Below, one piece after another: positions 49,785-60,377 of a DNA stretch of 64,000 bases (positions are counted from its first letter, which is position 1; every line of letters starts with the position of its first letter). The position numbers and the translations under genes were made by a program. Source of the DNA: an uncultured Rickettsiales bacterium. GTDB taxonomy: Bacteria; Pseudomonadota; Alphaproteobacteria; Micavibrionales; GCA-2720935. A model generated the notes under the pieces. The model was not told the origin of the DNA, ran no database searches, and saw only the letters and a list, made by a program, of their open reading frames with translations. The DNA lies in the NCBI GenBank assembly GCA_950054255.1, contig CATLOR010000003.1, forward strand, positions 121,816 to 185,815. Reading direction: 5' to 3'.

Positions 49785-51704
49785 ATGCCAAATATAGTAG
49801 ACGTCACATATGCCCAAACAGGGGAAAGCACCAAAACCAACTCAATGGGTATGCGTGAAATGCAAGAGCGTGCTTACTCTGCACGTGACGCTCAATATCT
49901 TCTTCTGAAAGCACCTCCTGCTTCAGGTAAATCTCGTGCGTTGATGTTTATTGCCTTGGATAAGCTGATTAACCAAGGCTTGAAAAAAGTGATTGTGGCC
50001 GTCCCTGAAAAATCTATCGGTGGTTCATTTGGAAATACTGATCTTAAAGAATACGGCTTCTATGCAAACTGGGAACCTAATGAGAAATACAACCTCTGCA
50101 CTCCGGGAGGCGATAAAAGCAAAGTGGATGCCTTTATGCGCTTTATGGAAGGTGACGAAAAAATTCTAATTTGTACGCATGCAACATTACGCTTTGCCTT
50201 TGAGCAGATCGATGAGAGCAAGTTTGATAATTGCCTACTTGCGATTGATGAATTTCACCATGTATCCGCAGATAAAGAAAACAGTCGCTTGGGTGGATTG
50301 CTACATTCGATAATGACTAAATCCAGCGCTCACGTGGTAGCGATGACAGGTTCATATTTCCGTGGCGATGGCGTTCCAGTACTTACACCAGAAGACGAAA
50401 AGAAATTTATACCAGTTACCTATAATTACTATGAGCAGTTGAATGGCTATACGCACCTGAAATCCTTGGGGATTGGATATCACTTTTATCAAGGTCGCTA
50501 CACTACAGCAATTGCCGAGGTTCTAGATACTGATAAAAAAACAATTCTACATATTCCCAGCGTGAATTCAGGTGAGTCAACAAAAGAGAAATATGACGAA
50601 GTTGACACAGTATTAGGCATTCTTGGCGAGGTTGATTATCAGGATGCTGAAACAGGTATTATATACCTAAAACGTCATACAGATGGGAAAACACTAAAAA
50701 TTGCAAACTTGGTAGAGGAATATCAAAGAGATCGCGTGCAGGAATACCTGCGTAATATTAAATCAGCTGATGATATTGATTTAATTATCGCTCTTGGCAT
50801 GGCAAAGGAAGGCTTTGACTGGCCGTATTGTGAGCATGCCTTAACGGTCGGTTACAGAGGGTCTTTGACTGAGGTTATTCAAATTATAGGGCGTTGTACG
50901 CGTGATAGCGATAACAAAACCCACGCGCAATTTACTAATCTGATTGCGCAACCCGATGCGGAAGATGGCTTAGTTACATTATCCGTTAATAATATGCTCA
51001 AGGCCATTACATGCTCACTTCTGATGGAGCAAGTGTTAGCACCTAATTTCAAATTCAAAACAAAGCTCTCAGATGACGATGAAGCAAAACCCGGAGAATT
51101 CAAAATTCGTGGTTTCAAAGAGCCTTCATCGAAAAGAGTAAAAGAGATTGTTGAATCTGATTTAAATGATCTAAAGGCAAGAATTCTTCAGGATGATAAA
51201 ATGATTAAGGCGCTGCCGGGTAATGTTGATCCAGAAGTGATTAACAAGGTGATGATTCCGAAGATTATCAAGATCAAATATCCAGAGCTATCAGATGCAG
51301 AAGTGGAAGAAGTACGCCAACATGTGGTCGTTGATTCCGTCATCAAGAATGGAGAAATCAAGGAAACTGGTGATAAACGCTTTATTCGGATGGCAGGTAA
51401 ATTTGTCAATATTGATGACCTGCACGTCGATCTGATTGATAGCGTTAATCCGTTCCAAGCCGCCTTTGAAATCCTATCTAAATCTGTAACAGCACAGGTC
51501 TTCCGAGTAATTCAGGAGGCAATTGAAGCCACCCGTATTCAAATGACGGATGAAGAAGCCATGCTGCTATGGCCAAAGATTAAGAGCTTTGTTCAAAACA
51601 ATAATGGTCAGCAACCAAATATCAATGCCGTTGACCCATTGGAACAACGATTAGCTGAGGCTCTGATATATATTCAAAACCAGCGCAGACAACAAAATTT
51701 ATAA
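49785..51704 (+). CDS. SF2 DExH-box helicase (YeeB-like / type III res-like)
   Basis: Motif I APPASGKSRA, motif II DEFHH, motif III MTGS, and motif VI QIIGRCTRD. Confidence 0.8.
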   Translation: MPNIVDVTYAQTGESTKTNSMGMREMQERAYSARDAQYLLLKAPPASGKSRALMFIALDKLINQGLKKVIVAVPEKSIGGSFGNTDLKEYGFYANWEPNEKYNLCTPGGDKSKVDAFMRFMEGDEKILICTHATLRFAFEQIDESKFDNCLLAIDEFHHVSADKENSRLGGLLHSIMTKSSAHVVAMTGSYFRGDGVPVLTPEDEKKFIPVTYNYYEQLNGYTHLKSLGIGYHFYQGRYTTAIAEVLDTDKKTILHIPSVNSGESTKEKYDEVDTVLGILGEVDYQDAETGIIYLKRHTDGKTLKIANLVEEYQRDRVQEYLRNIKSADDIDLIIALGMAKEGFDWPYCEHALTVGYRGSLTEVIQIIGRCTRDSDNKTHAQFTNLIAQPDAEDGLVTLSVNNMLKAITCSLLMEQVLAPNFKFKTKLSDDDEAKPGEFKIRGFKEPSSKRVKEIVESDLNDLKARILQDDKMIKALPGNVDPEVINKVMIPKIIKIKYPELSDAEVEEVRQHVVVDSVIKNGEIKETGDKRFIRMAGKFVNIDDLHVDLIDSVNPFQAAFEILSKSVTAQVFRVIQEAIEATRIQMTDEEAMLLWPKIKSFVQNNNGQQPNINAVDPLEQRLAEALIYIQNQRRQQNL

Positions 51705-51715
51705 GGTGTGATTGA

Positions 51716-52870
51716 GTGGATAAGGACGATTTATTAAAACTGATAAACGATGATGATTTAGGGCTATTAAATGTTAAGCCTAAGCAATCTGCTATTGTCA
51801 CTGCAGATGAGCGCCTTATTGCATCCTTTACTCAAATCAATCAGTTTGTTGCAGACAATGGACGAGAACCTGAAAGTGGTAAAGGCATTCAGGAACACCA
51901 ACTCTATGCTCGTCTTAACGGTATTCGTGAGAGTGCTGAGAAGATGGAAGCGCTTGCAAGCCTTGATGGACATGGCTTACTCAATGTCCAACGCACAGAA
52001 ATAAGCTCTATTGAAGATATTTTTGACGATGATGATTTGGGTATTTTGGGTAACGAAGCGGAGAGCATCTTTACGCTGAAGCACATCTCAAAAGAAACAA
52101 CGATGCCTGATTATGTTGCCAGTCGTAAGCCGTGTAAAGATTTTGAAATATTCGAGGCTAAATTCACTCAATGCCAGGCAGACCTGACAGCTGGAAAAAG
52201 AAAGCTATGGCCGTTTAAGAACGAACAACAAATCCAAAAGGGTTATTTCTTTGTTCTTAAAGGTGTTCTACTTTATGTGGCTGATGTTGGTGAAGTTGAG
52301 AAAAGTAACGGTAAAAAGAATGCTAGGTTACGCTGTATTTTTGAGAATGGAACAGAATCCGACATGTTGTTACGTTCATTGGCAGCCGAGCTTTATAAGG
52401 ATGGCCGTCGCGTAACTGAGCACGAAGATCAGTTGCTGGATGGCTTTAGCAATATTAACGAAGAAGACGAAGCAACAGGTTATATCTACGTCTTGCGCTC
52501 GTTAAGCACAAAGACTGATATTCAGGAACTTAACAACCTCTATAAAATTGGTTTCTCAACTGTTCCTGTAGAACAACGCATTAAGAATGCGGAAAACGAA
52601 CCAACATATTTAATGGCACCGGTTCATATTGTGGAGGCTTACCAGTGCTACAATATGAACCCACAAAAATTGGAACAGTTGCTTCACACATTCTTTGGGT
52701 CATCCTGTTTGAATATTGATATTTTCGATGGTAATGGCCAACGCCACACACCTCGTGAATGGTTCATTGCACCATTAGATATAATTGAACAAACGATACA
52801 TTTCGTGCTGAACGGCGACATTGTGAATTATCGTTATGATTCAGATAAACAAGAAATTGTGGGGAGGTAA
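51716..52870 (+). CDS. T5orf172 / GIY-YIG-superfamily (Mug113-like) protein, YeeC-like
   Basis: GTG start. The C-terminal half reads GYIYVLRS..LYKIGFSTVPVEQRIKN..EQLLHTFF..REWFIAPLDIIEQTI, which is the T5orf172 pattern. Confidence 0.65.
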   Translation: MDKDDLLKLINDDDLGLLNVKPKQSAIVTADERLIASFTQINQFVADNGREPESGKGIQEHQLYARLNGIRESAEKMEALASLDGHGLLNVQRTEISSIEDIFDDDDLGILGNEAESIFTLKHISKETTMPDYVASRKPCKDFEIFEAKFTQCQADLTAGKRKLWPFKNEQQIQKGYFFVLKGVLLYVADVGEVEKSNGKKNARLRCIFENGTESDMLLRSLAAELYKDGRRVTEHEDQLLDGFSNINEEDEATGYIYVLRSLSTKTDIQELNNLYKIGFSTVPVEQRIKNAENEPTYLMAPVHIVEAYQCYNMNPQKLEQLLHTFFGSSCLNIDIFDGNGQRHTPREWFIAPLDIIEQTIHFVLNGDIVNYRYDSDKQEIVGR

Positions 52871-52873
52871 AGA

Positions 52874-54256
52874 ATGCTTGATCAATCCTTCTCTGCTGAA
52901 AATTTCCGTAAAATTTTTGACTACGAAAACAGGAAAGGTAATTATCTTGCCGGGAGTTTCTTTCCAGACGCGAATGAAAAATCAAGAAAAATCAAACGAT
53001 GTAATGATGAGTTAAAGGAGCTCAAGAAACCCTCTGATGAAGATAAAGTTGATGCATATACTCAAAAGAAACAGGAGTTGGTTGAAAAGAAGACAAATTT
53101 AGAGCAGGAAAAAGAACAAATACTCGAAGATGCTTTTAAGAAGGTTAGCGATACAGCAACTCAAAAAAACTTTTCTTTAGATCTCGAAGATAGAGATATC
53201 AACGGCAAGAAAGTTTATGTTGCAGCGAATTCATCTGGAGACTATTCGGGGCTCGCTAAAGAGAAACGACTAAATTTAGCAGCCCAATTTTTTGCATTAA
53301 AACAGACACAGAAAAATATCAGTAAATTATATAAAGTTAAGCAAGCGGATCGTTATAATATAGTTTGCCAATTGAGAGAGGCTCTAAGAGGTCGTTTTCC
53401 TAAATATATTATTAGAACCGATATTTCGAGCTTTTATGAGAGCATTCCAAGGGTTGAATTAATAAAAAAAATCAATGAGGACAATCTTCTAACTTATAAT
53501 TCTAAGAAAACAATAAAACAGATCCTATATAAATATGGAACACTCCCTGGGGGGAGTTTCAAGGGCATCCCAAGAGGTGTTGGAATAAGCGCGTACCTCT
53601 CAGAATTACACATGCGCGAATTGGATGAAGAGATGCGAAACGCACCAAATGTTTTATATTACGCAAGGTATGTCGACGACATAATAATCATATACACTAA
53701 CGCCAACCCTAGCGTGAAATCATTGCGAGCATTCTGTAGAAACATTATTGAAAAGGGGCTGAAAAGAAACCGTCAAAAAACCTCTCTTATAAAGGCGAAT
53801 GGAAGTACACCGCACACCATTGATTATCTAGGCTATAGTTTTAGATTCGGCACCGGTGACGTTAAAGTAAACATAACAAAATCCAAAGTTGATCGGTATA
53901 AAAGTAAGATTGATCTATCTTTTTATGATTATGAAAAAAAATTAAAATATAATGAGAAAAAAGCTCGACGACTGCTAATAAAGCGAATTAAGTTTCTAAC
54001 TGGAAATACACGCTTAATTGGCAATAAGAAAAATATTCGAGTGGGGATATACTTTTCTAATAAGATTCTCACCGATCATTCTTATTTAAAGGGGATGGAC
54101 TGTTATCTAACTCACAAAGTATCTTCATTGCAAAATGAGCGAGCAAAAAACAGACTTAGTAAGCTGTCCTTTCAAAAAGGGTTCGTCGAGAAAACCTTTT
54201 ATAAATTTTCAAAGGCAGATTTAGAAAACATTATGGAGGCTTGGAAATATGCCTAA
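52874..54256 (+). CDS. Reverse transcriptase 1 (UG3/Drt3a-like, tentative class)
   Basis: 460 aa. RT motifs DISSFYESI, GIPRGVGISAYLSELHM, YARYVDDIIIIY (YVDD at 53669-53680), RNRQKTS and IDYLGYSF. There is an N-terminal charged coiled-coil and a GGGAGG RBS. Confidence 0.8.
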   Translation: MLDQSFSAENFRKIFDYENRKGNYLAGSFFPDANEKSRKIKRCNDELKELKKPSDEDKVDAYTQKKQELVEKKTNLEQEKEQILEDAFKKVSDTATQKNFSLDLEDRDINGKKVYVAANSSGDYSGLAKEKRLNLAAQFFALKQTQKNISKLYKVKQADRYNIVCQLREALRGRFPKYIIRTDISSFYESIPRVELIKKINEDNLLTYNSKKTIKQILYKYGTLPGGSFKGIPRGVGISAYLSELHMRELDEEMRNAPNVLYYARYVDDIIIIYTNANPSVKSLRAFCRNIIEKGLKRNRQKTSLIKANGSTPHTIDYLGYSFRFGTGDVKVNITKSKVDRYKSKIDLSFYDYEKKLKYNEKKARRLLIKRIKFLTGNTRLIGNKKNIRVGIYFSNKILTDHSYLKGMDCYLTHKVSSLQNERAKNRLSKLSFQKGFVEKTFYKFSKADLENIMEAWKYA

Positions 54257-56375
54257 GCGTCTTAAAATCAGATATAAAAAAGAGCGTGCCATCTTAGCGG
54301 ATGTCTTACCTTATGAAACCCCAGTGACTTTTACGAATCGTCATGTTTATGACTTTATAGAAAAGTTTAAGGTTACCATTAGTGATGACACGCTATCATG
54401 GAAGTCAAATAACAATGATGCATTAGATAAAATCATTCATATCTTATTTGCATTGCCAGAGAACCCAAGTCGTCTGTCCACCCAAAATGGCGGCATTAAG
54501 TCTTATGATTTCAATAACGGTGGCCAACCTAGGCCAGAGTACCCATTAATACCATTTGGCTATAAAATAAGTCACAAGCAAAAGGAGTTTCGTGAACTCA
54601 ATGTTCCTCATACCCGTAGTCAGCTACTCGTAGCCAACTTTTATGAACAGTATAAAGAAAGCATTATCTATTATTGTTCGCAAAGCTCTTTTTCAATACG
54701 CGCACCTCGAAAAATAGCCACACATAAGTTCTACAAGGACAATTTGCACAAATCAAAATTATCTGATGATGCTTCAATCATTGAAGAAAATGATAAGGAG
54801 TACAAGAACCAGAAATCTTTCTTTTCATACAAAGACTACAGCAATATCCATAAATTCTATGAGTCTCCACGATACCACCGTTGCGAGAAAAAATATAACA
54901 AACTCCTGAAGCTAGATATCTCCAAATGCTTTGATAGCATCTACACACATTCAATTGCATGGGCTCTTCTCGGAAAGCAAGAGGTCAAAGAAAACCTTAA
55001 AACCGTGGATAATACTTTTGCAGGCCAATTTGATAGGTTAATGCAGAATATTAACTATGGGGAAACGAATGGCATCATAATAGGTCCAGAACTATCCAGA
55101 ATCTTTGCTGAGATTATTTTGCAGGCTGCAGACAAAAAGGTCGAATTTCTTCTGAAAACAGAGCATGGCCTTAAAAACAAAGTAGATTTCGAGATGCTTC
55201 GTTATGTGGATGATTATTTTATCTTTTACAATGAGGAAGATGATAAAAGTACAATTGTAGAAACCGCCCAGCATGTTCTTAAAGAGTATAAGTTACACCT
55301 TAATTCGGCCAAAGAAGTTGAATATGAGAAGCCTCTCATAACAGAAATGTCTATCGCCAAAGAACGAATATCCAAACTCTTAGAAAACGAACTAAAATAT
55401 AGATTAGAGACAGTAGAGGAGGAAAGCGACGAAGGGCCTATTGAATACGAAAAGGGCAGCATCTACGTTAACAGCAAGAAGCTAATTATAGACTTCAAGA
55501 CTATTATCAAGGAGTGCCAGGTCGAATACAAAGATATGCTTAATTACTCCTTTTCAATTATTGAAAGGAAGTGTCATCAAATCATCAATGATTTCACAAA
55601 AGCCCACCCAGATCATCGATCAGAAGAAGGTTTTATAAAAGCGATCGTTGCCCTTCTGCAGTTTATATTTTTTATTTATTCAGTATCCCCAAGGGTCAAT
55701 ACCACAATAAAGCTTTGTATAATCTTAAAGACATTCCTGTCCTATTTGAAGGGCTCAAAATTCTGTCCTGAGAAAAATACACAAACTTCTAATATCAAGA
55801 ATTCTGAGAACAAGCACAGAGTTTTTAAATGCATCTACGACAATATTACTCTTGTTATGAAGAAGAATAAATGTAGCGATGCAACGCAAGTTGAAACTTT
55901 ATATTTGTTGATTGCACTGGCAGAGTTAGGAAAAGAATATTGGTTGGATGAAGATATTTTAGCGGAATACTTTGGTATAGAGGACTTGGAGAGTGAAAAT
56001 CCAAGAAAGAATAGCTGCCTAAATTATTTCTCCTTAACGGTACTTTTATATTATATGAGAGAAAAAGCCAAATACCGTAATTTGCGGAATTTAGTTGAAA
56101 AAATGGTGATTGAAAAGTTTCAGTGTGATGAAAAGATTCGAAGAAAGAGCTCCGAGCATACGATGTTGTTTTTTGATATGCTTTCGTGCCCTTTTATAAA
56201 AACTGAGACTAAGAAAAAAATTCTGCAGGCATATAATATAAACGATGCAAATCTGCAGAATGACCTGATTAATTTTCAAGTGGCTAACACTCCCAAACAA
56301 TTATGGTTCACAACTTGGGAAGGCTTCAATTTTAGTAAAGAGCTTGACGCAAAGCGTAGCCAAGAAGTATATTAA
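54249..56375 (+). CDS. Reverse transcriptase 2 (UG8/Drt3b-like, tentative class) with long C-terminal extension
   Basis: 708 aa. RT motifs LDISKCFDSIYTHSI, GIIIGPELSRIFAEI, LRYVDDYFIFY (YVDD at 55203-55214) and LNSAKE. Overlaps RT1 by 8 nt (ATGCCTAA). Confidence 0.8.
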   Translation: MPKRLKIRYKKERAILADVLPYETPVTFTNRHVYDFIEKFKVTISDDTLSWKSNNNDALDKIIHILFALPENPSRLSTQNGGIKSYDFNNGGQPRPEYPLIPFGYKISHKQKEFRELNVPHTRSQLLVANFYEQYKESIIYYCSQSSFSIRAPRKIATHKFYKDNLHKSKLSDDASIIEENDKEYKNQKSFFSYKDYSNIHKFYESPRYHRCEKKYNKLLKLDISKCFDSIYTHSIAWALLGKQEVKENLKTVDNTFAGQFDRLMQNINYGETNGIIIGPELSRIFAEIILQAADKKVEFLLKTEHGLKNKVDFEMLRYVDDYFIFYNEEDDKSTIVETAQHVLKEYKLHLNSAKEVEYEKPLITEMSIAKERISKLLENELKYRLETVEEESDEGPIEYEKGSIYVNSKKLIIDFKTIIKECQVEYKDMLNYSFSIIERKCHQIINDFTKAHPDHRSEEGFIKAIVALLQFIFFIYSVSPRVNTTIKLCIILKTFLSYLKGSKFCPEKNTQTSNIKNSENKHRVFKCIYDNITLVMKKNKCSDATQVETLYLLIALAELGKEYWLDEDILAEYFGIEDLESENPRKNSCLNYFSLTVLLYYMREKAKYRNLRNLVEKMVIEKFQCDEKIRRKSSEHTMLFFDMLSCPFIKTETKKKILQAYNINDANLQNDLINFQVANTPKQLWFTTWEGFNFSKELDAKRSQEVY

Positions 56376-56470
56376 ATATGCGCTTCACTCAAATTATTAA
56401 CACACACATGCGCACGTTAGTCTTTCTGAAAAAGTTAGTATAACATTGGCACCACTGGAGAGTGGTGCCT
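56376..56470 (+). ncRNA. Candidate RT-associated structured non-coding RNA (hypothesis)
   Basis: The non-coding tail directly after RT2 has a TGCGC (56379-56383)/GCGCA (56410-56414) stem. This stem encloses a loop with ACACACACA (56400-56408). A perfect 9-bp hairpin follows at 56448-56469. There are no expression data. Confidence 0.3.
56448..56469. terminator. GC-rich hairpin GGCACCACT-GGAG-AGTGGTGCC between the convergent RT2 and lysozyme genes
   Basis: Perfect 9-bp inverted repeat read in the sequence. No adjacent U-run on the plus strand, so it may be structural rather than an intrinsic terminator. Confidence 0.45.
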
Positions 56471-56523
56471 AAATGTTTCCGATCTTCTTCTCTATTTTTT
56501 AAGGCATAATCTAAAAATACTAC

Positions 56524-56958
56524 TTATAAAGTGTAAACCTTAGTCTCTGCCTCCCTGCGCCTTACAAGCCCTCTTAACTTACGGCCACCAGCCCAGACCC
56601 AGCGCATAAGCTGAGCCGGAACATTCTGGTGGTTCTTACGATTAATGACGCGGCGTAGGGTTGAGCGTTGTAGTGCGCCTGATCCTAAATTGTAGGTAAA
56701 TGACACCAGTGCATCAAACTGCCCGTCCGTTAATGGCACTGTAATTAAGCGCAGGACGGCACGTTCTGCTATTTGAGCATCTAAGCGCAGTAACTCTTCA
56801 GCCTCACCTTGAGTGATCCCGCCAGAGAAATCCTCACCCTTTTTAACGACGTGGCCGTAGCCGATTGTTGGGTATCCTGCAGGGCAAAAATAAACGGTTG
56901 GAGAGAAGCCCTCGAACCGTTTGATTAAATCTATACCTTCTTGTGTAATATGACGCAT
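56524..56958 (-). CDS. Phage endolysin, GH24 lysozyme
   Basis: 144 aa. LIKRFEGFSPTVYFCPAGYPTIGYGH contains the catalytic Glu and the T4/lambda-R-like motif. Confidence 0.85.
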   Translation of the reverse strand: MRHITQEGIDLIKRFEGFSPTVYFCPAGYPTIGYGHVVKKGEDFSGGITQGEAEELLRLDAQIAERAVLRLITVPLTDGQFDALVSFTYNLGSGALQRSTLRRVINRKNHQNVPAQLMRWVWAGGRKLRGLVRRREAETKVYTL

Positions 56959-56976
56959 ATTAGCCTCCGTTAAATA

Positions 56977-57267
56977 TTAATGTTTCTCCAGCGTTGCAAT
57001 GACCGTTAGTTTTTTATCGCCGCTCGTAAATACGCCCCAAAATTGCTCTTGGTCTAAGACCATTTTGCGGTCAATTTTCAGCTTAAATTTATCGACCTTA
57101 TATTTTAGGGCTAAGGGGAAGTCGGCCAGATCATAAAATGCTGTTCTGGCCAATCCAACTTGCTTCACCACCGCTTGATAATGATCCAGCAAACATTCAA
57201 TTTCACGATCCGAACATTGATCGCTCGTCATGTCCTCAATCATGGCTTTGTAGTAAATTTTTGACAT
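56977..57267 (-). CDS. Hypothetical phage protein
   Basis: 96-aa ORF between the holin and the endolysin. No family recognised. Confidence 0.3.
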   Translation of the reverse strand: MSKIYYKAMIEDMTSDQCSDREIECLLDHYQAVVKQVGLARTAFYDLADFPLALKYKVDKFKLKIDRKMVLDQEQFWGVFTSGDKKLTVIATLEKH

Positions 57268-57340
57268 TGTTCATCCTTTCTTTTGTTCTATCAGTAACGC
57301 TTCGTTTCGGAACTTAATCAACTGAATAAGATGTTATTAT

Positions 57341-57799
57341 TCAGCTATTTGAACGAAACTTTGAAAGCGCTCTCTGACCAAACCAAAACGACATAACCGC
57401 AGCAAAAAGAGCCTGTGTTTCAATATCCCAAATGGCAATTAAGCTGTCGGTGATGGGTGCGCCACTATCGAGTAGATTGAGCAATGCTGATATTTTGACG
57501 GTCGCAAATAAAGCGAAGAATGCGTATGTCAAAATCGGGCGGACAGATGCTCTTAAGGCTTCAACCCAGCGCACACCACTAGGCTGGCTTGCGTGTTTGT
57601 AAAGAGCTTGGCTTTCTGAAATATCAGCCTGCACATGGATTTCTTCCGAGCGTTGATTATGCCCTTGCTTTTGTGCCTCCATCTGCCGATCAAGAATGGC
57701 AAGCTCATGTTTTTTGTCGCTGCGATCCTGCCAAATATTCAGAAAGTCTGGGAACGCAGATGAAATAAAGCCGATCAGGCTTCCAAGTAATGTAAGCAT
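57341..57799 (-). CDS. Putative 3-TM holin (GTA_holin_3TM/DUF3154-like)
   Basis: 152 aa. One N-terminal TM, a charged central region, two C-terminal TMs and an ending FGQRALSKF. It lies just upstream of the endolysin. Confidence 0.5.
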   Translation of the reverse strand: MLTLLGSLIGFISSAFPDFLNIWQDRSDKKHELAILDRQMEAQKQGHNQRSEEIHVQADISESQALYKHASQPSGVRWVEALRASVRPILTYAFFALFATVKISALLNLLDSGAPITDSLIAIWDIETQALFAAVMSFWFGQRALSKFRSNS

Positions 57800-57832
57800 A
57801 GTATTTTCTCCTTTTTGAGTTGTTGAAATTGA

Positions 57833-58093
57833 TTATTTAGGGGTACGTAAAAATTTGAGATCGTCGCGGATATCAATGATCTGCACTTTTATGGCGGCAA
57901 GATCTTCGCGCATTTCACCGACAACTTTGCGTCCCGTGATATCGTTATTGACGAGGGTTTCGACGGTGTTTAGACGAGCATTTAAAATGGCTAGGCGTGA
58001 GCTGATCCATGAGGTCAGCTTTACGAGCGCAACAAGTATGGCCAAACTGTGAGCGATAATGCCCACAGCCAAGCCCCATTCTGCAGGGGTCAT
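57833..58093 (-). CDS. Small membrane protein with coiled-coil (lysis-cassette accessory?)
   Basis: 86 aa. One TM (GLAVGIIAHSLAILVALV), then a helical region. Confidence 0.3.
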   Translation of the reverse strand: MTPAEWGLAVGIIAHSLAILVALVKLTSWISSRLAILNARLNTVETLVNNDITGRKVVGEMREDLAAIKVQIIDIRDDLKFLRTPK

Positions 58094-58121
58094 GCTTTTT
58101 CTCCTTAGTTAGTTTTGTTTT

Positions 58122-60377
58122 TTAGATATCGGCGGTATGCACCAGCGGATTTTCAACGACAGAGGCAATCTCAATAAGATCGCCACGTGGCTTGATGGCT
58201 GTGACACGCGCCAGCACAGCCCAATCCTCTCCAATACCAAAGGAAAAGTGCGTGCGTTCTTCTGCACTGCCTGTGTAGGGCGCAAAATCAATTTCATCGA
58301 GCAGTTCGACTTGCGTTTCCCTTCCAGTAGTGACGACTTCCCACGGACCACTGATCGAACCATCACGCTTGCGCAAGGCGATGTAATGGCTATTGCCATC
58401 TTTAAATGTCACTGGCTCAGACAAAATCAGGATAGGATGCTCATACGCGACCACGTCGCCAGCTTCACCCCAGCGCGGCATATCATGAGAGATGGCGATC
58501 AGATCACCATAGGTCGGGATCAAGCCCTCCAGCTCTGTTCTAAAATTAACCATGCGCCGACGATAACGATTAGCCGCCGCCATATACAGACCTTCACGCA
58601 TAGCATGATCTTTATTCGTACAGCCGAAAAGCGAAACAGTGGCTGGTTGCTCTGCATTGCTATCTGGAAGGCTGGCGGTCACTTCATCTGGCTTCCATGT
58701 CTTTTGATTAAAAAACTCAACGGTGACGCTATCTGCCGTATCTTCGCCTGGCATCACATAGTCGATTTTAAAACTGCTCTTTACGATATTGCGCGGGGAG
58801 AACAAGGCAACAGGTAGCGTCTTCGGCTCATCCCGCACAAATCGAACCAGTCCACCTTGTAAAAACGGAATAGCGCGACCACACCGCGCCACTTGCGTTA
58901 AAGCGTCCCAGACTGTGCGCTTACTATCAAAAACACCGTTAAATGTATCGCCGCGCGTTTGCCAAATCATATCCAGCGCCACCAGCGCCTGCAGATCAAT
59001 CCGGCTATCTTCTAAATCCGCGCCATAGCTTGCCTTTAAAATATCAGCCATCGCCCACGCGATAGATTGTGTGACTTGAACACTGCTCCAGCCATTTTGA
59101 TCATCCCAAATTGATAATTTGCGCGTTACGATACAATTCACCATCCGCGATGAGCGCTGAGATAAATTATCCGTTGCCCGCATTTTCATGGCCAGCAATG
59201 TTACATTCCCAAAATTAGGGGTATGAATTAAATGGGCTTTCAGCGCGTTCCAATTTAAATCATTGCCAGCTCTGGCAGAATTATCTTTGGCATTGGTGCG
59301 GATCGCTTGAACCTCATACCGCCCCGCCGCCACAGAATATTTATAGGTATTGCGAATGGCTGTATTGGTGTTTGCCGTATGTGTTTCTGTTCCCAGCGTG
59401 ATCCATGAGCCTAAAGCCGCGCCATCATCATCGATAAGGCGTGCTTGCACTTCCCATGTAACCGTTCGATTGTTTAAAGAGCCGCTGTCATTCGCGTAAT
59501 ACAGCCCCTTGGGCATAATAATATCAAGGCTGATCAGATCCGTTGTTGTCTCAGCAGGGTTTACAACAAACGGTCCAATCCAATCCCCACCATCGGCAAT
59601 ATTTAGAAGCTCTTGCCCTGCAACCTCTGGCGCAGTGACGACATCCGTATCAAACAAGCTGACTGCGCCATTGGGCTGAATGACTTCATACACAATCTCC
59701 TCAAAGGAGCTGATCGGCGTATCCTCGATGCGGATTTGCTCAATATCATATTCACCTTGACCAATCACATGGAGCTGGAAAAGGAATTGATCATTGCCCT
59801 CAAATTCTGCATAAGGCGTTGCACCAAAATCGGGATACACAACGTGCCGACCGTACACAACAGGTATTGGCTCACCAAGGCGGGCTTGGTTGCCTTGCGC
59901 CTGCAGGGAATATGTTGGACTGGGGCTAGTGGCGTTATAATTACTGATCGCAGAGCTTGGCATTGGCGGCGGAATAAGCGCATTAACCAGCGCTGAGCCA
60001 GCCAAAGCAATCCCAGCGGTAATAAGCGATGTACCAATAGCGCTCGTTACGCCCAGCGTGCCTGCAAGCGCCGCACCCGCATAAGGCGCAGCCACCATGA
60101 CGGCAATGGTTAAAACCGTCCGCAGGATTTTACCGCCACCACCGCCGCCTTGAGGAAGCGTGATGAAACTGATCACCGTATCTTTGGCAATAACCACCAG
60201 TGCCCAGTTTTTTTTAAGCACAGGTTCACCATCAACAAGACACAATGTTGGCTTTGTGAATTCTACGATGCCGCGTTCATCAAGCCAGCCACGTATTGTT
60301 TGCCCGAGTTTCGGGGTGAACAAATCAACGTTTAGATGCAGATGAAATGGGTTATGATGAATGGCAATTTGAGCCAT
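58122..60377 (-). CDS. Phage host-specificity / tail-tip protein (lambda J-like, Phage-tail_3-like)
   Basis: 751 aa. Follows an NlpC/P60 gene as in L-K-I-J-type modules. Has an N-terminal Gly-rich hydrophobic region (GGGGGGKILRTVLTIAVMVAAPYAGAALAG). Confidence 0.6.
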   Translation of the reverse strand: MAQIAIHHNPFHLHLNVDLFTPKLGQTIRGWLDERGIVEFTKPTLCLVDGEPVLKKNWALVVIAKDTVISFITLPQGGGGGGKILRTVLTIAVMVAAPYAGAALAGTLGVTSAIGTSLITAGIALAGSALVNALIPPPMPSSAISNYNATSPSPTYSLQAQGNQARLGEPIPVVYGRHVVYPDFGATPYAEFEGNDQFLFQLHVIGQGEYDIEQIRIEDTPISSFEEIVYEVIQPNGAVSLFDTDVVTAPEVAGQELLNIADGGDWIGPFVVNPAETTTDLISLDIIMPKGLYYANDSGSLNNRTVTWEVQARLIDDDGAALGSWITLGTETHTANTNTAIRNTYKYSVAAGRYEVQAIRTNAKDNSARAGNDLNWNALKAHLIHTPNFGNVTLLAMKMRATDNLSQRSSRMVNCIVTRKLSIWDDQNGWSSVQVTQSIAWAMADILKASYGADLEDSRIDLQALVALDMIWQTRGDTFNGVFDSKRTVWDALTQVARCGRAIPFLQGGLVRFVRDEPKTLPVALFSPRNIVKSSFKIDYVMPGEDTADSVTVEFFNQKTWKPDEVTASLPDSNAEQPATVSLFGCTNKDHAMREGLYMAAANRYRRRMVNFRTELEGLIPTYGDLIAISHDMPRWGEAGDVVAYEHPILILSEPVTFKDGNSHYIALRKRDGSISGPWEVVTTGRETQVELLDEIDFAPYTGSAEERTHFSFGIGEDWAVLARVTAIKPRGDLIEIASVVENPLVHTADI

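What the first reader, a model, noticed from the sequence alone, without database searches (positions are those of the whole stretch)
56376..56470. Structured non-coding tail after RT2 with an ACACACACA tract presented in a GC-clamped loop
The sequence right after the RT2 stop shows three elements. First, TGCGC (56379-56383) can pair with GCGCA (56410-56414). Second, the enclosed 26-nt loop contains AACACACACAUG, with ACACACACA at 56400-56408. Third, a perfect 9-bp GC-rich hairpin GGCACCACU/AGUGGUGCC lies at 56448-56469 without a U-tract.

DRT systems use cognate ncRNAs as templates. From memory and unverified, DRT3 has an ncRNA next to the RT genes, and recent work links it to synthesis of dinucleotide-repeat DNA. 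An (AC)n template would give poly(GT) cDNA. The tract is short and could be chance, so this is a hypothesis.
Basis: partly seen in the sequence, partly recalled or inferred. Interest (0 to 1): 0.72.

Follow-up and report, generated by a model that had tools for sequence, protein, structure and literature searches.

The report
DRT3 template RNA with (AC)n loop

Summary

- **Genes:** ORFs 52874-54256 and 54249-56375 are Drt3a and Drt3b.
- **Family model:** A covariance model built from 50 homologous loci, without the window's own clade, gives one hit in the 64 kb window. It lies at 56377-56474 (+), 40.7 bits, E about 5e-7.
- **Tract conservation:** A (CA)n tract lies 27-78 nt after the drt3b stop in 79 of 80 distant DRT3 loci.
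- **Literature:** Published work (Mestre 2022; Wang/Sternberg 2026; Deng/Gao 2026) shows that the ACACAC loop templates poly(dTdG) synthesis by Drt3a. Drt3b makes poly(dCdA) without a nucleic-acid template.

Three things go beyond the finding:

1. A strongly covarying pseudoknot joins the box just 3' of the P1 5' arm to the P4 loop. No text I could read mentions it. In the window it would compete with the top 4 bp of the 9-bp hairpin.
2. The window's clade lacks the stem-loop that abuts the template 5' side in 57 of 80 relatives.
3. A sigma-70-like promoter sits inside the last drt3b codons and is kept at synonymous sites.

This architecture differs from the experimentally studied E. coli DRT3 RNA. 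Verdict: a new, distant member of a known kind, of modest interest.

The parts
52874..54256 (+). drt3a (UG3, Class 2 reverse transcriptase). This is the enzyme expected to bind the ncRNA and copy the AC tract.
   Evidence: PADLOC Drt3a E = 4.7e-116. Matches PDB 9z6y chain A 'Drt3a reverse transcriptase protein' at 2.9e-29. 33% identical to E. coli Y5 Drt3a, with the YVDD motif and C-terminal WKY intact.
54249..56375 (+). drt3b (UG8, Class 1 reverse transcriptase). It overlaps drt3a by 8 nt, and its stop codon TAA is at 56373-56375.
   Evidence: PADLOC Drt3b E = 2.1e-203. Matches PDB 9z6y chain H Drt3b at 2.7e-71. 29% identical to EcoDRT3b, with YVDD, E26 (window E23) and R253 (window R284) conserved.
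56344..56373 (+). Candidate sigma-70 promoter for the ncRNA, inside the last 11 codons of drt3b. TTGACG is at 56344-56349, an 18-nt spacer follows, and TATATT is at 56368-56373. The predicted start is about 56379-56382, at the foot of P1.
   Evidence: Best promoter-like match in 52500-57200, 10 of 12 positions. Synonymous-site bias over 88 loci supports it. The penultimate Val codon is GTA in 63 of 79 against a 26% background. The Asp codon at -9 is GAC in 50 of 64 against 34%. TATAYT is present in 63 of 88, and TKGACR lies 18 nt upstream. This part is inferred, not shown.
56379..56383 (+). P1 5' arm (UGCGC).
   Evidence: Pairs with 56410-56414. P1 covaries in the family: 94.5% of cells are paired and all 5 pairs show double changes, for example GC 32, AU 29, CG 15 at one pair.
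56385..56390 (+). Pseudoknot 5' strand ('box', UCACUC), 1-2 nt after the P1 5' arm.
   Evidence: A 6-bp duplex with 56460-56465, -7.8 kcal/mol. In the family the helix is 87.6-92% paired, and 6 of 7 pairs show double changes on alignments not fitted to it. Own box against own loop averages -9.62 versus -6.27 +/- 0.26 kcal/mol when permuted, 0 of 10000.
56391..56399 (+). A/U-rich single-stranded linker (AAAUUAUUA). It takes the place of the P2 stem-loop that abuts the template 5' side in most relatives.
   Evidence: P2 is deleted in the model alignment of the window. The P2 region is present in 57 of 80 family members.
56400..56408 (+). Template tract ACACACACA.
   Evidence: ACACAC is invariant in 60 of 60 aligned homologues. 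Tract forms in 80 relatives: CACACACA 44, ACACACACA 17, CACACACACA 8. The template role was shown experimentally for EcoDRT3 (PMC13174585).
56410..56414 (+). P1 3' arm (GCGCA), 1 nt after the tract.
56416..56444 (+). P3 hairpin. In the window it is weak: GUUA/UAAC, then CU/AG, then CU/AG, with two 2x2 internal loops.
   Evidence: Folding. The inter-helix region forms a single hairpin in 80 of 80 relatives with median z -3.14. The window gives -5.7 kcal/mol, z -2.25.
56448..56469 (+). P4 terminal hairpin (GGCACCACU-GGAG-AGUGGUGCC). Positions 56460-56465 (GAGUGG) double as the pseudoknot 3' strand, so forming the pseudoknot needs the top 4 bp (56453-56456 with 56461-56464) to open.
   Evidence: P4 covaries: 93.9% paired, 7 of 7 pairs with double changes. 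Relative L089 (65% protein identity) has a 7-bp P4 with a 10-nt loop holding a 7-bp pseudoknot strand GAGCGAG. The window's loop is shorter.
56470..56480 (+). 3' tail UAAAUGUUUCC, a degenerate U-run. The likely 3' end lies around 56474-56480.
   Evidence: Relatives have UAAAUUUUU, AAAAUUUUU or a direct U-run after P4. Identity to close relatives falls sharply after 56474. The covariance-model hit ends at 56474.

Best explanation
Bases about 56379 to 56475-56480 (+) encode the cis ncRNA of a DRT3 (Drt3a/UG3 + Drt3b/UG8) anti-phage system carried at the edge of a phage or prophage lysis/tail module.

**Structure.** The RNA folds into three helices. P1 closes a 26-nt loop, followed by the P3 hairpin and the GC-rich terminal hairpin P4. 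ACACACACA sits single-stranded on the 3' side of the P1 loop, 1 nt from the P1 helix.

**Mechanism, by homology to the E. coli system.** Drt3a binds this RNA and copies the AC tract repeatedly, with slippage and template resetting, into poly(dTdG). Drt3b synthesises poly(dCdA) using active-site residues instead of a template. The two strands anneal into poly(GT/AC) duplex DNA, whose accumulation underlies abortive infection.

**Additional features.** In the wider family the box just 3' of the P1 5' arm pairs with the P4 loop. This pseudoknot ties the 3' hairpin back to the template loop. In the window that pairing (56385-56390 with 56460-56465) is possible but competes with the top of the 9-bp hairpin. 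The RNA is probably made from its own promoter embedded in the last codons of drt3b.

**Shown here:** gene identity, position, sequence and structure conservation, and covariation. **Taken from the literature for a 29%-identical system:** the templating chemistry. **Inferred:** the promoter, the pseudoknot in this clade, and the RNA ends.
For: **Genes**
- Drt3a and Drt3b assignments and matches to PDB 9z6y chains.
- YVDD motifs are intact in both, and Drt3b E26 and R253 equivalents are conserved.

**Family membership of the RNA**
- Model R1 was built without the window clade. It finds one hit in the window, 56377-56474 (+), 40.7 bits, E = 5.4e-7, full length. It also finds 80 hits in 91 DRT3 loci.
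- The tract is present in 79 of 80 loci.

**Covariation**
- MAFFT alignment A3: 86.2% of cells paired versus 72.0% shuffled (0 of 500) and 36-45% slid; 23 of 25 pairs show double changes.
- A4: 91.0% paired.
- A5: 92.3% paired versus 73.7% shuffled.

**Pseudoknot**
- 87.6-92% paired with 6 of 7 pairs showing double changes. It was not part of the model.
- Permutation test gave 0 of 10000.

**Local conservation**
- The ncRNA is 99% identical to viral contig L094, against 83.8% for the coding flank and 73-75% for the downstream flanks.

**Promoter**
-.

**Mechanism from the literature**
- PMC13174585, PMC13314766 and PMC13213688, PMC9226505, and the DRT10 structure preprint on shared Class 2 template logic.
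Against: - There are no expression, RNA-end or product data for this locus or organism.
- The system is only 29% (Drt3b) identical to the experimentally studied EcoDRT3. That system's ncRNA has a different architecture and is not detected by the family model. Transfer of mechanism therefore rests on the shared AC tract and the protein family, not on RNA homology.
- The window lacks the 5' template-flanking stem-loop that Class 2 systems are reported to use as a boundary anchor.
- P3 is weak, and P4 has no canonical U-tract.
- In the window clade the pseudoknot is only partly supported. It is compensated in L087, L088, L089 and L090. It is weakened in L083 (A.C mismatch) and L085, where the hairpin arms covary instead.
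Confidence: 0.88

Rival explanations
1. The RNA is a DRT3 ncRNA, but the CACACA motif is a protein recognition or attachment site and scaffold element rather than a copied template. This was the 2022 speculation.
For: Mestre et al. 2022 proposed a recognition or attachment role for the exposed motif. Sequence invariance of the tract fits a binding site as well as a template. The ncRNA is also described as a scaffold of the 6:6:6 complex.
Against: For EcoDRT3, products are poly(dTdG), depend on the ncRNA and on dGTP plus dTTP, and are lost when the motif is mutated. A DRT10 scaffold carrying the DRT3 motif makes poly(dTdG). The tract varies only in the number and phase of CA units, as expected for a repeat template.
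Confidence: 0.06
2. The region is only the 3' UTR and transcription terminator of the drt3ab operon, possibly a bidirectional terminator shared with the convergent lysozyme gene. On this view the AC tract is a chance low-complexity run.
For: The 9-mer is not rare by itself: 29 of 100 shuffles contain one. P4 is a GC-rich hairpin at the end of an operon, facing a convergent gene that ends at 56524. Most relatives have a U-run after P4, so P4 probably does terminate transcription.
Against: The tract and its position are conserved in 79 of 80 loci with unrelated downstream genes. P1, P3 and the pseudoknot covary, which a terminator does not need. The window's hairpin lacks a U-tract. The stretch is more conserved than the coding flank.
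Confidence: 0.03
3. The stretch encodes a small protein (21-aa ORF 56378-56443, MRFTQIINTHMRTLVFLKKLV) or is a recombination (att-like) site of the mobile element.
For: An ATG-initiated 21-codon ORF exists. The locus lies at a phage module boundary.
Against: The ATG is lost in L085 and in most relatives, and the conservation pattern is that of paired helices, not codons. The element travels with drt3b in many genomic contexts rather than with the phage genes.
Confidence: 0.01

Closest known systems
EcoDRT3 ncRNA (E. coli DRT3; Wang et al. 2026 preprint PMC13174585; Deng et al. Science 2026; PDB 9z6y/9z6z)
   Same: Both are encoded in cis just downstream of drt3b in a drt3a-drt3b operon. Both have an exposed, invariant ACACAC tract next to a helix. 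The partner proteins belong to the same families, with catalytic and base-gating residues conserved.
   Different: - Protein identity is only 29% (Drt3b).
- In the locus identical to the crystallised or cryo-EM protein (L082), the tract lies 143 nt after the stop, behind a multibranch domain closed by AUUGCU/AGCAAU.
- The family model that detects the window does not detect that RNA.
- The window RNA is about 100 nt, with the tract 25 nt after the stop, inside a P1-closed loop, and with a candidate pseudoknot.
UG8-downstream ncRNA groups 1-17 with the 'CACACA'-like motif (Mestre et al. 2022, PMC9226505)
   Same: Same genomic position, same exposed motif, and group-specific structures with a variable distance to the RT stop. 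The window's RNA belongs to this set. It shares P1, P3 and P4 with 80 loci from Proteobacteria, Bacteroidota, Acidobacteriota and others.
   Different: That paper treated the motif as a possible binding site. The text I could read does not mention the pseudoknot or an embedded promoter. I could not see its supplementary structure drawings.
DRT10 (UG17) and DRT9 ncRNAs; the Class 2 'template window framed by two anchored stem-loops' logic (bioRxiv 10.64898/2026.06.29.735271)
   Same: A short internal template is reused by slippage to give tandem-repeat DNA. Drt3a is phylogenetically close to UG17. In most family members the P2 hairpin (5') and the P1 helix (3') frame the tract as described.
   Different: The window's clade has no 5' flanking stem-loop. 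A 9-nt A/U linker separates the tract from the nearest 5' helix, which is either the pseudoknot or P1. DRT3 also needs a second, untemplated RT.
Telomerase RNA template/pseudoknot core
   Same: It works alike: a short single-stranded template, a boundary helix, a pseudoknot that closes the template-containing loop, and repeat addition by template resetting. The resemblance of the mechanism is stated in the DRT10 papers. The pseudoknot is from my covariation analysis.
   Different: No sequence or structural homology was tested or claimed. The RNA is about 100 nt, the product is a dinucleotide repeat, and the complementary strand is made by a separate protein-templated RT.

Membership tests
DRT3 (UG3+UG8) cis ncRNA | Lies directly downstream of drt3b in a drt3a-drt3b gene pair, on the same strand. 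| tested here: met
   Drt3a 52874-54256 and Drt3b 54249-56375. The RNA begins 4 nt after the stop codon.
DRT3 (UG3+UG8) cis ncRNA | A conserved ACACAC/CACACA motif exposed in a loop. | tested here: met
   ACACACACA 56400-56408 is unpaired in the MFE and centroid structures. The motif is invariant in 60 of 60 homologues and present in 79 of 80 loci.
DRT3 (UG3+UG8) cis ncRNA | A conserved secondary structure supported by covariation, recognisable by a family covariance model. | tested here: met
   Model R1, built without the window clade, hits 56377-56474 at 40.7 bits, E = 5.4e-7. This is the only hit in 64 kb.
DRT3 (UG3+UG8) cis ncRNA | Same architecture as the experimentally characterised EcoDRT3 ncRNA (the published covariance model of 41 systems). 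| tested here: not met
   The published model is not available. My family model does not detect the EcoDRT3 locus L082. The fold of that region is a multibranch domain followed by the tract.
DRT3 (UG3+UG8) cis ncRNA | A stem-loop abutting the 5' side of the template (boundary anchor). | tested here: not met
   P2 is deleted in the window alignment and replaced by AAAUUAUUA 56391-56399. P2 is present in 57 of 80 relatives.
DRT3 (UG3+UG8) cis ncRNA | Both RTs are catalytically competent, and Drt3b keeps the base-selecting residues. | tested here: met
   YVDD is present in both proteins. EcoDRT3b E26 and R253 align to window E23 and R284. The residue roles are taken from PMC13213688.
DRT3 (UG3+UG8) cis ncRNA | A stable RNA bound by the RTs that templates poly(dTdG) and is required for defence. 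| not testable with these tools
   Needs RNA-seq or RIP-seq, in vitro reverse transcription and phage assays. This is shown only for EcoDRT3.
Rfam-curated RNA families | A match to any Rfam 15 model. | tested here: not met
   No match in 52000-58000 at E <= 1 apart from a chance snoRNA hit at 52022-52112.
Intrinsic (rho-independent) terminator | A GC-rich hairpin followed directly by a U-run. | tested here: inconclusive
   The hairpin is present, but the tail is UAAAUGUUUCC and the scan reports no site here. Close relatives have UAAAUUUUU, and most of the family has a direct U-run.

The most novel reading that the evidence does not exclude
The widespread class of DRT3 ncRNAs to which this one belongs has a telomerase-RNA-like core. 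An H-type pseudoknot between the nucleotides just 3' of the P1 5' arm and the loop of the terminal hairpin closes the template loop. This feature is not mentioned in any text I could read, and the experimentally studied E. coli RNA is built differently.

In the window's clade the local 5' boundary stem-loop has been lost. The pseudoknot 3' strand has also slid into the stem of an extended 9-bp hairpin. As a result, hairpin and pseudoknot are mutually exclusive conformers, and the pseudoknot, or a switch between the two, sets the 5' template boundary or gates templating.
Probability: 0.25. Interest if true: 0.55.

Novelty: new member of a known kind. Interest (0 to 1): 0.33.

Why it matters
**For annotation.** The result turns an unannotated 100-nt intergenic stretch next to two 'reverse transcriptase' ORFs into a complete, probably functional DRT3 defence cassette carried by a phage or prophage.

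**For the DRT3 field.** It adds comparative material that the E. coli work does not cover:
- a short, widely distributed RNA architecture, with 80 hits in 91 loci from many phyla;
- a strongly covarying pseudoknot;
- natural variants without the 5' template-flanking stem-loop;
- an ncRNA promoter written into the last codons of drt3b.

These give concrete mutational tests of how the template boundary and template resetting are defined. None of this changes the known mechanism.

Tried and rejected
- **Rfam scan of 52000-58000.** Nothing relevant was found.
- **Megablast of the region against complete E. coli genomes.** No match, so the window is not the studied system.
- **RNAalifold on the raw MAFFT alignment.** It recovered only P4. 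P1, P2 and the pseudoknot had to be specified by hand and then tested with shuffles and slid controls.
- **P3 in a fixed column register.** It could not be scored because of length variation, so it was tested by folding each sequence on its own.
- **Deng et al. (Science 2026).** The paper is not held. I therefore cannot say whether a pseudoknot or its equivalent is seen in the cryo-EM RNA.
- **Metagenome and viral scans for more close relatives.** They gave only one useful locus, L094.
- **Chance occurrence of the 9-mer.** It is not excluded by composition alone and is excluded only by comparison.
- **Small-ORF reading.** Rejected.
- **Retron msr/msd.** Considered and dropped without a formal test, because the RTs are UG3 and UG8 rather than retron-type and the RNA lies 3' of the RT genes.

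Full report
**1. The observation**

The sequence is as described. TGCGC 56379-56383 pairs with GCGCA 56410-56414 around a 26-nt loop. That loop ends in AACACACACAU, with ACACACACA at 56400-56408. GGCACCACU and AGUGGUGCC form a perfect 9-bp hairpin at 56448-56469 with a GGAG loop, followed by UAAAUGUUUCC rather than a U-tract.

RNAfold of 56379-56480 returns exactly these helices plus a weak middle hairpin. The MFE is -29.4 kcal/mol and z = -3.33. A longer piece gave z = -2.94.

On composition alone the 9-mer is unremarkable. It occurs once in the window, but 29 of 100 shuffles contain one. The case therefore rests on context and comparison.

**2. Context**

- ORF 52874-54256 is Drt3a (PADLOC E = 4.7e-116). 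ORF 54249-56375 is Drt3b (E = 2.1e-203).
- Both match the chains of PDB 9z6y/9z6z.
- Both keep YVDD. The Drt3b residues reported to select bases in E. coli, E26 and R253, align to E23 and R284.
- A DEAD/ResIII helicase and a T5orf172 protein lie upstream on the same strand. A phage lysozyme and a gpJ-like tail protein lie downstream on the other strand.
- The same layout occurs on an ENA contig and on an IMG/VR viral contig. The cassette therefore sits in a phage or prophage.
- The window is not E. coli. Its Drt3b is 29% identical to the studied EcoDRT3b and 40% identical to a second E. coli DRT3.

**3. Comparison**

I collected 80 loci with Drt3b homologues at 41-55% identity from GTDB species representatives, together with closer relatives from metagenomes.

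- In 79 of 80 loci a (CA)n>=3 tract lies 27-78 nt after the drt3b stop.
- In a plain MAFFT alignment of 60 such regions ACACAC is invariant.
- Between the window and viral contig L094, bases 56376-56474 are 99% identical. The last 798 nt of drt3b are 83.8% identical (third positions 69.5%), and the DNA beyond 56474 is 73-75% identical. L083 and L085 show the same contrast.

This delimits a constrained element of about 99 nt.

**4. Structure**

By inspection of the alignments the family has five elements:

- **P1:**
- **Box:** a conserved sequence directly 3' of the P1 5' arm.
- **P2:** a small hairpin that abuts the 5' end of the tract in most members.
- **P3:** a hairpin after the tract and the P1 3' arm.
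- **P4:** a terminal GC-rich hairpin with a conserved 8-10-nt loop and usually a U-run.

I counted the specified pairs on three alignments.

| Alignment | Cells paired | Shuffled control | Slid control | Pairs with double changes |
|---|---|---|---|---|
| A3 (MAFFT, 60 sequences) | 86.2% | 72.0% (0 of 500) | 36-45% | 23 of 25 |
| A4 (50 sequences, no window clade) | 91.0% | 76.3% (0 of 500) | 34-48% | 22 of 24 |
| A5 (model-based, 80 sequences) | 92.3% | 73.7% | 34-50% | 23 of 24 |

P3 could not be put in one register, but it folds as a single hairpin in 80 of 80 sequences with median z -3.14. The window's P3 is weak at -5.7 kcal/mol.

A covariance model built from A4 contains neither the window's clade nor the pseudoknot. 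It gives one hit in the window, at 56377-56474 (+), 40.7 bits, E = 5.4e-7, full length with P2 deleted. It hits 80 regions in 91 sources, always just after drt3b.

**5. The pseudoknot**

The box pairs with the P4 loop. Typical pairings are:

- UUCGUCA with UGGCGAG;
- CCGUCU with AGGACGG;
- CAGUCC with GGACUG;
- UCAGGC with GCCUGA in E. coli Y5;
- CUGCUC with GAGCAG.

This helix was not in the model. Even so, it is 87.6-92% paired, and 6 of 7 pairs show double changes. One pair reads CG 31 and UA 29; another reads UA 25, CG 24 and UG 18.

I also ran a register-free test. The duplex energy of each box with its own loop averages -9.62 kcal/mol, against -6.27 +/- 0.26 when loops are permuted among sequences (0 of 10000).

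In the window the best pairing is U56385-C56390 with G56460-G56465 (-7.8 kcal/mol). It uses GAGUG, which is also the top of the 3' arm of the 9-bp hairpin. The two structures therefore exclude each other over 4 bp.

Evidence within the clade is mixed:

- L089 (65% protein identity) has a 7-bp P4 with a 10-nt loop and a clean 7-bp pseudoknot (UUCGCUC with GAGCGAG).
- L087 and L088 change box, 5' arm and 3' arm together (U, U, A).
- L090 has CUCCUC with GAGGGG.
- L083 and L085 keep the hairpin while weakening the pseudoknot.

I regard the pseudoknot as established for the family and as plausible but unproven for this RNA. The word 'pseudoknot' does not occur in the Wang preprint, in the two DRT3 reviews, in Mestre 2022 or in the DRT10 structure preprint.

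**6. Two further features**

*Loss of P2.* P2 abuts the template in 57 of 80 relatives, and Wang et al. implicate the adjacent stem-loop in read-through termination. The DRT10 structure preprint states that Class 2 templates, including DRT3, are framed by two RT-anchored stem-loops. It adds that DRT3a Y419 contacts the 5' stem-loop. The window's clade and several Bacteroidota lineages lack P2 and have a 9-13-nt A/U linker instead. The window's Drt3a nevertheless keeps the C-terminal WKY motif.

*Embedded promoter.* The best sigma-70-like match in the region lies inside the last codons of drt3b: TTGACG, an 18-nt spacer, then TATATT, at 56344-56373. Across 88 loci the penultimate Val codon is GTA in 63 of 79, against 26% elsewhere in the same genes. 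The Asp codon that forms the -35-like element is GAC in 50 of 64, against 34%. This suggests a dedicated ncRNA promoter whose start falls at the foot of P1. It is an inference from synonymous-site conservation, not a measurement.

**7. Comparison with what is known**

- Gao 2020 and Mestre 2022 established an essential ncRNA 3' of UG3+UG8. They also described a globally conserved, exposed 'CACACA'-like motif in group-specific structures.
- In 2026 two groups showed that the motif templates poly(dTdG) synthesis by Drt3a.
- They also showed that Drt3b makes poly(dCdA) by protein templating.
- The strands anneal to duplex DNA. The E. coli complex is a 6:6:6 RNP.

The locus identical to the structurally studied system (L082) has a differently organised RNA. 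Its tract lies 143 nt after the stop, behind a multibranch domain, and my family model does not detect it. The window's RNA is therefore a member of the DRT3 ncRNA class in the broad sense of Mestre's groups. It is not a member of the EcoDRT3 structural subgroup.

**8. Rivals**

- **Pure terminator or 3' UTR:** excluded by conservation of the tract and by covariation of helices a terminator does not need.
- **Binding-site-only role for the motif:** contradicted by the published mutational and product data, though it cannot be excluded for this locus computationally.
- **21-codon ORF:** not conserved.

**9. Verdict**

This is a new, distant member of a known kind, in a P2-less variant form.

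Interest is modest (0.33). The additions worth passing on are the covarying pseudoknot, its conflict with the 9-bp hairpin in this clade, the missing 5' boundary stem-loop, and the codon-embedded promoter.

Noticed in passing
window 49785-52870 (+): A DEAD/ResIII/Helicase_C protein (639 aa) and a T5orf172/MUG113 protein (384 aa) lie head-to-tail directly upstream of drt3a, with gaps of 11 and 3 nt. Helicase genes also flank DRT3 in L081, L085, L086 and L091. This could be an accessory module or a neighbouring defence system.
   Followed up: partly
window 56344-56373 (+), inside drt3b codons -11 to stop: A sigma-70-like promoter (TTGACG, 18 nt, TATATT) is embedded in the conserved C-terminus ..LDAKRSQEVY*. 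Synonymous codons are biased towards the promoter consensus across 88 loci: GTA 63 of 79 against 26% background, and GAC 50 of 64 against 34%.
   Followed up: yes
L082 4928-5095 (E. coli GF3-3; Drt3a identical to PDB 9z6y): The experimentally studied EcoDRT3 sits in a P4-like satellite (psu to integrase). Its ncRNA has a different fold, with the CACACAC tract 143 nt after the stop behind a multibranch domain. The family model that finds the window's RNA does not detect it.
   Followed up: partly
window 56524-60377 (-); L094, L095: A phage lysozyme (144 aa) and a gpJ-like tail protein (751 aa) converge on the DRT3 cassette. The same arrangement occurs on an IMG/VR viral contig and an ENA contig, so the DRT3 system is phage- or prophage-borne.
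   Followed up: partly
window 56376-56474 versus L094 996-1094: The ncRNA stretch is 99% identical between two phage-like contigs. The drt3b 3' portions of those contigs are 83.8% identical, and their downstream DNA is 73-75% identical. Identity drops right after 56474.
   Followed up: yes
window 56416-56421 and 56434-56439: GTTAGT occurs twice as a direct repeat within P3, where relatives such as L087 have a clean inverted repeat (CGUCAGUC with GGCUGGCG). P3 in the window is correspondingly weak. L090 shows a similar direct repeat (GGCGTCA twice) around P4.
   Followed up: no
L052, L054 (Schmidhempelia, Gilliamella); L041: Two Orbaceae loci carry the CACACA tract 78 nt after the stop and score poorly or not at all with the family model, which suggests a third architecture. 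L041 shows no tract; only 150 nt downstream of its drt3b were available, and its protein match stops at query residue 695.
   Followed up: no
window 54249-56375 / 52874-54256: drt3a and drt3b overlap by 8 nt (54249-56), which suggests translational coupling. The Drt3a C-terminal WKY motif is kept, and Y419 of EcoDRT3a is reported to contact the 5' stem-loop. Yet the window's RNA lacks that stem-loop.
   Followed up: no
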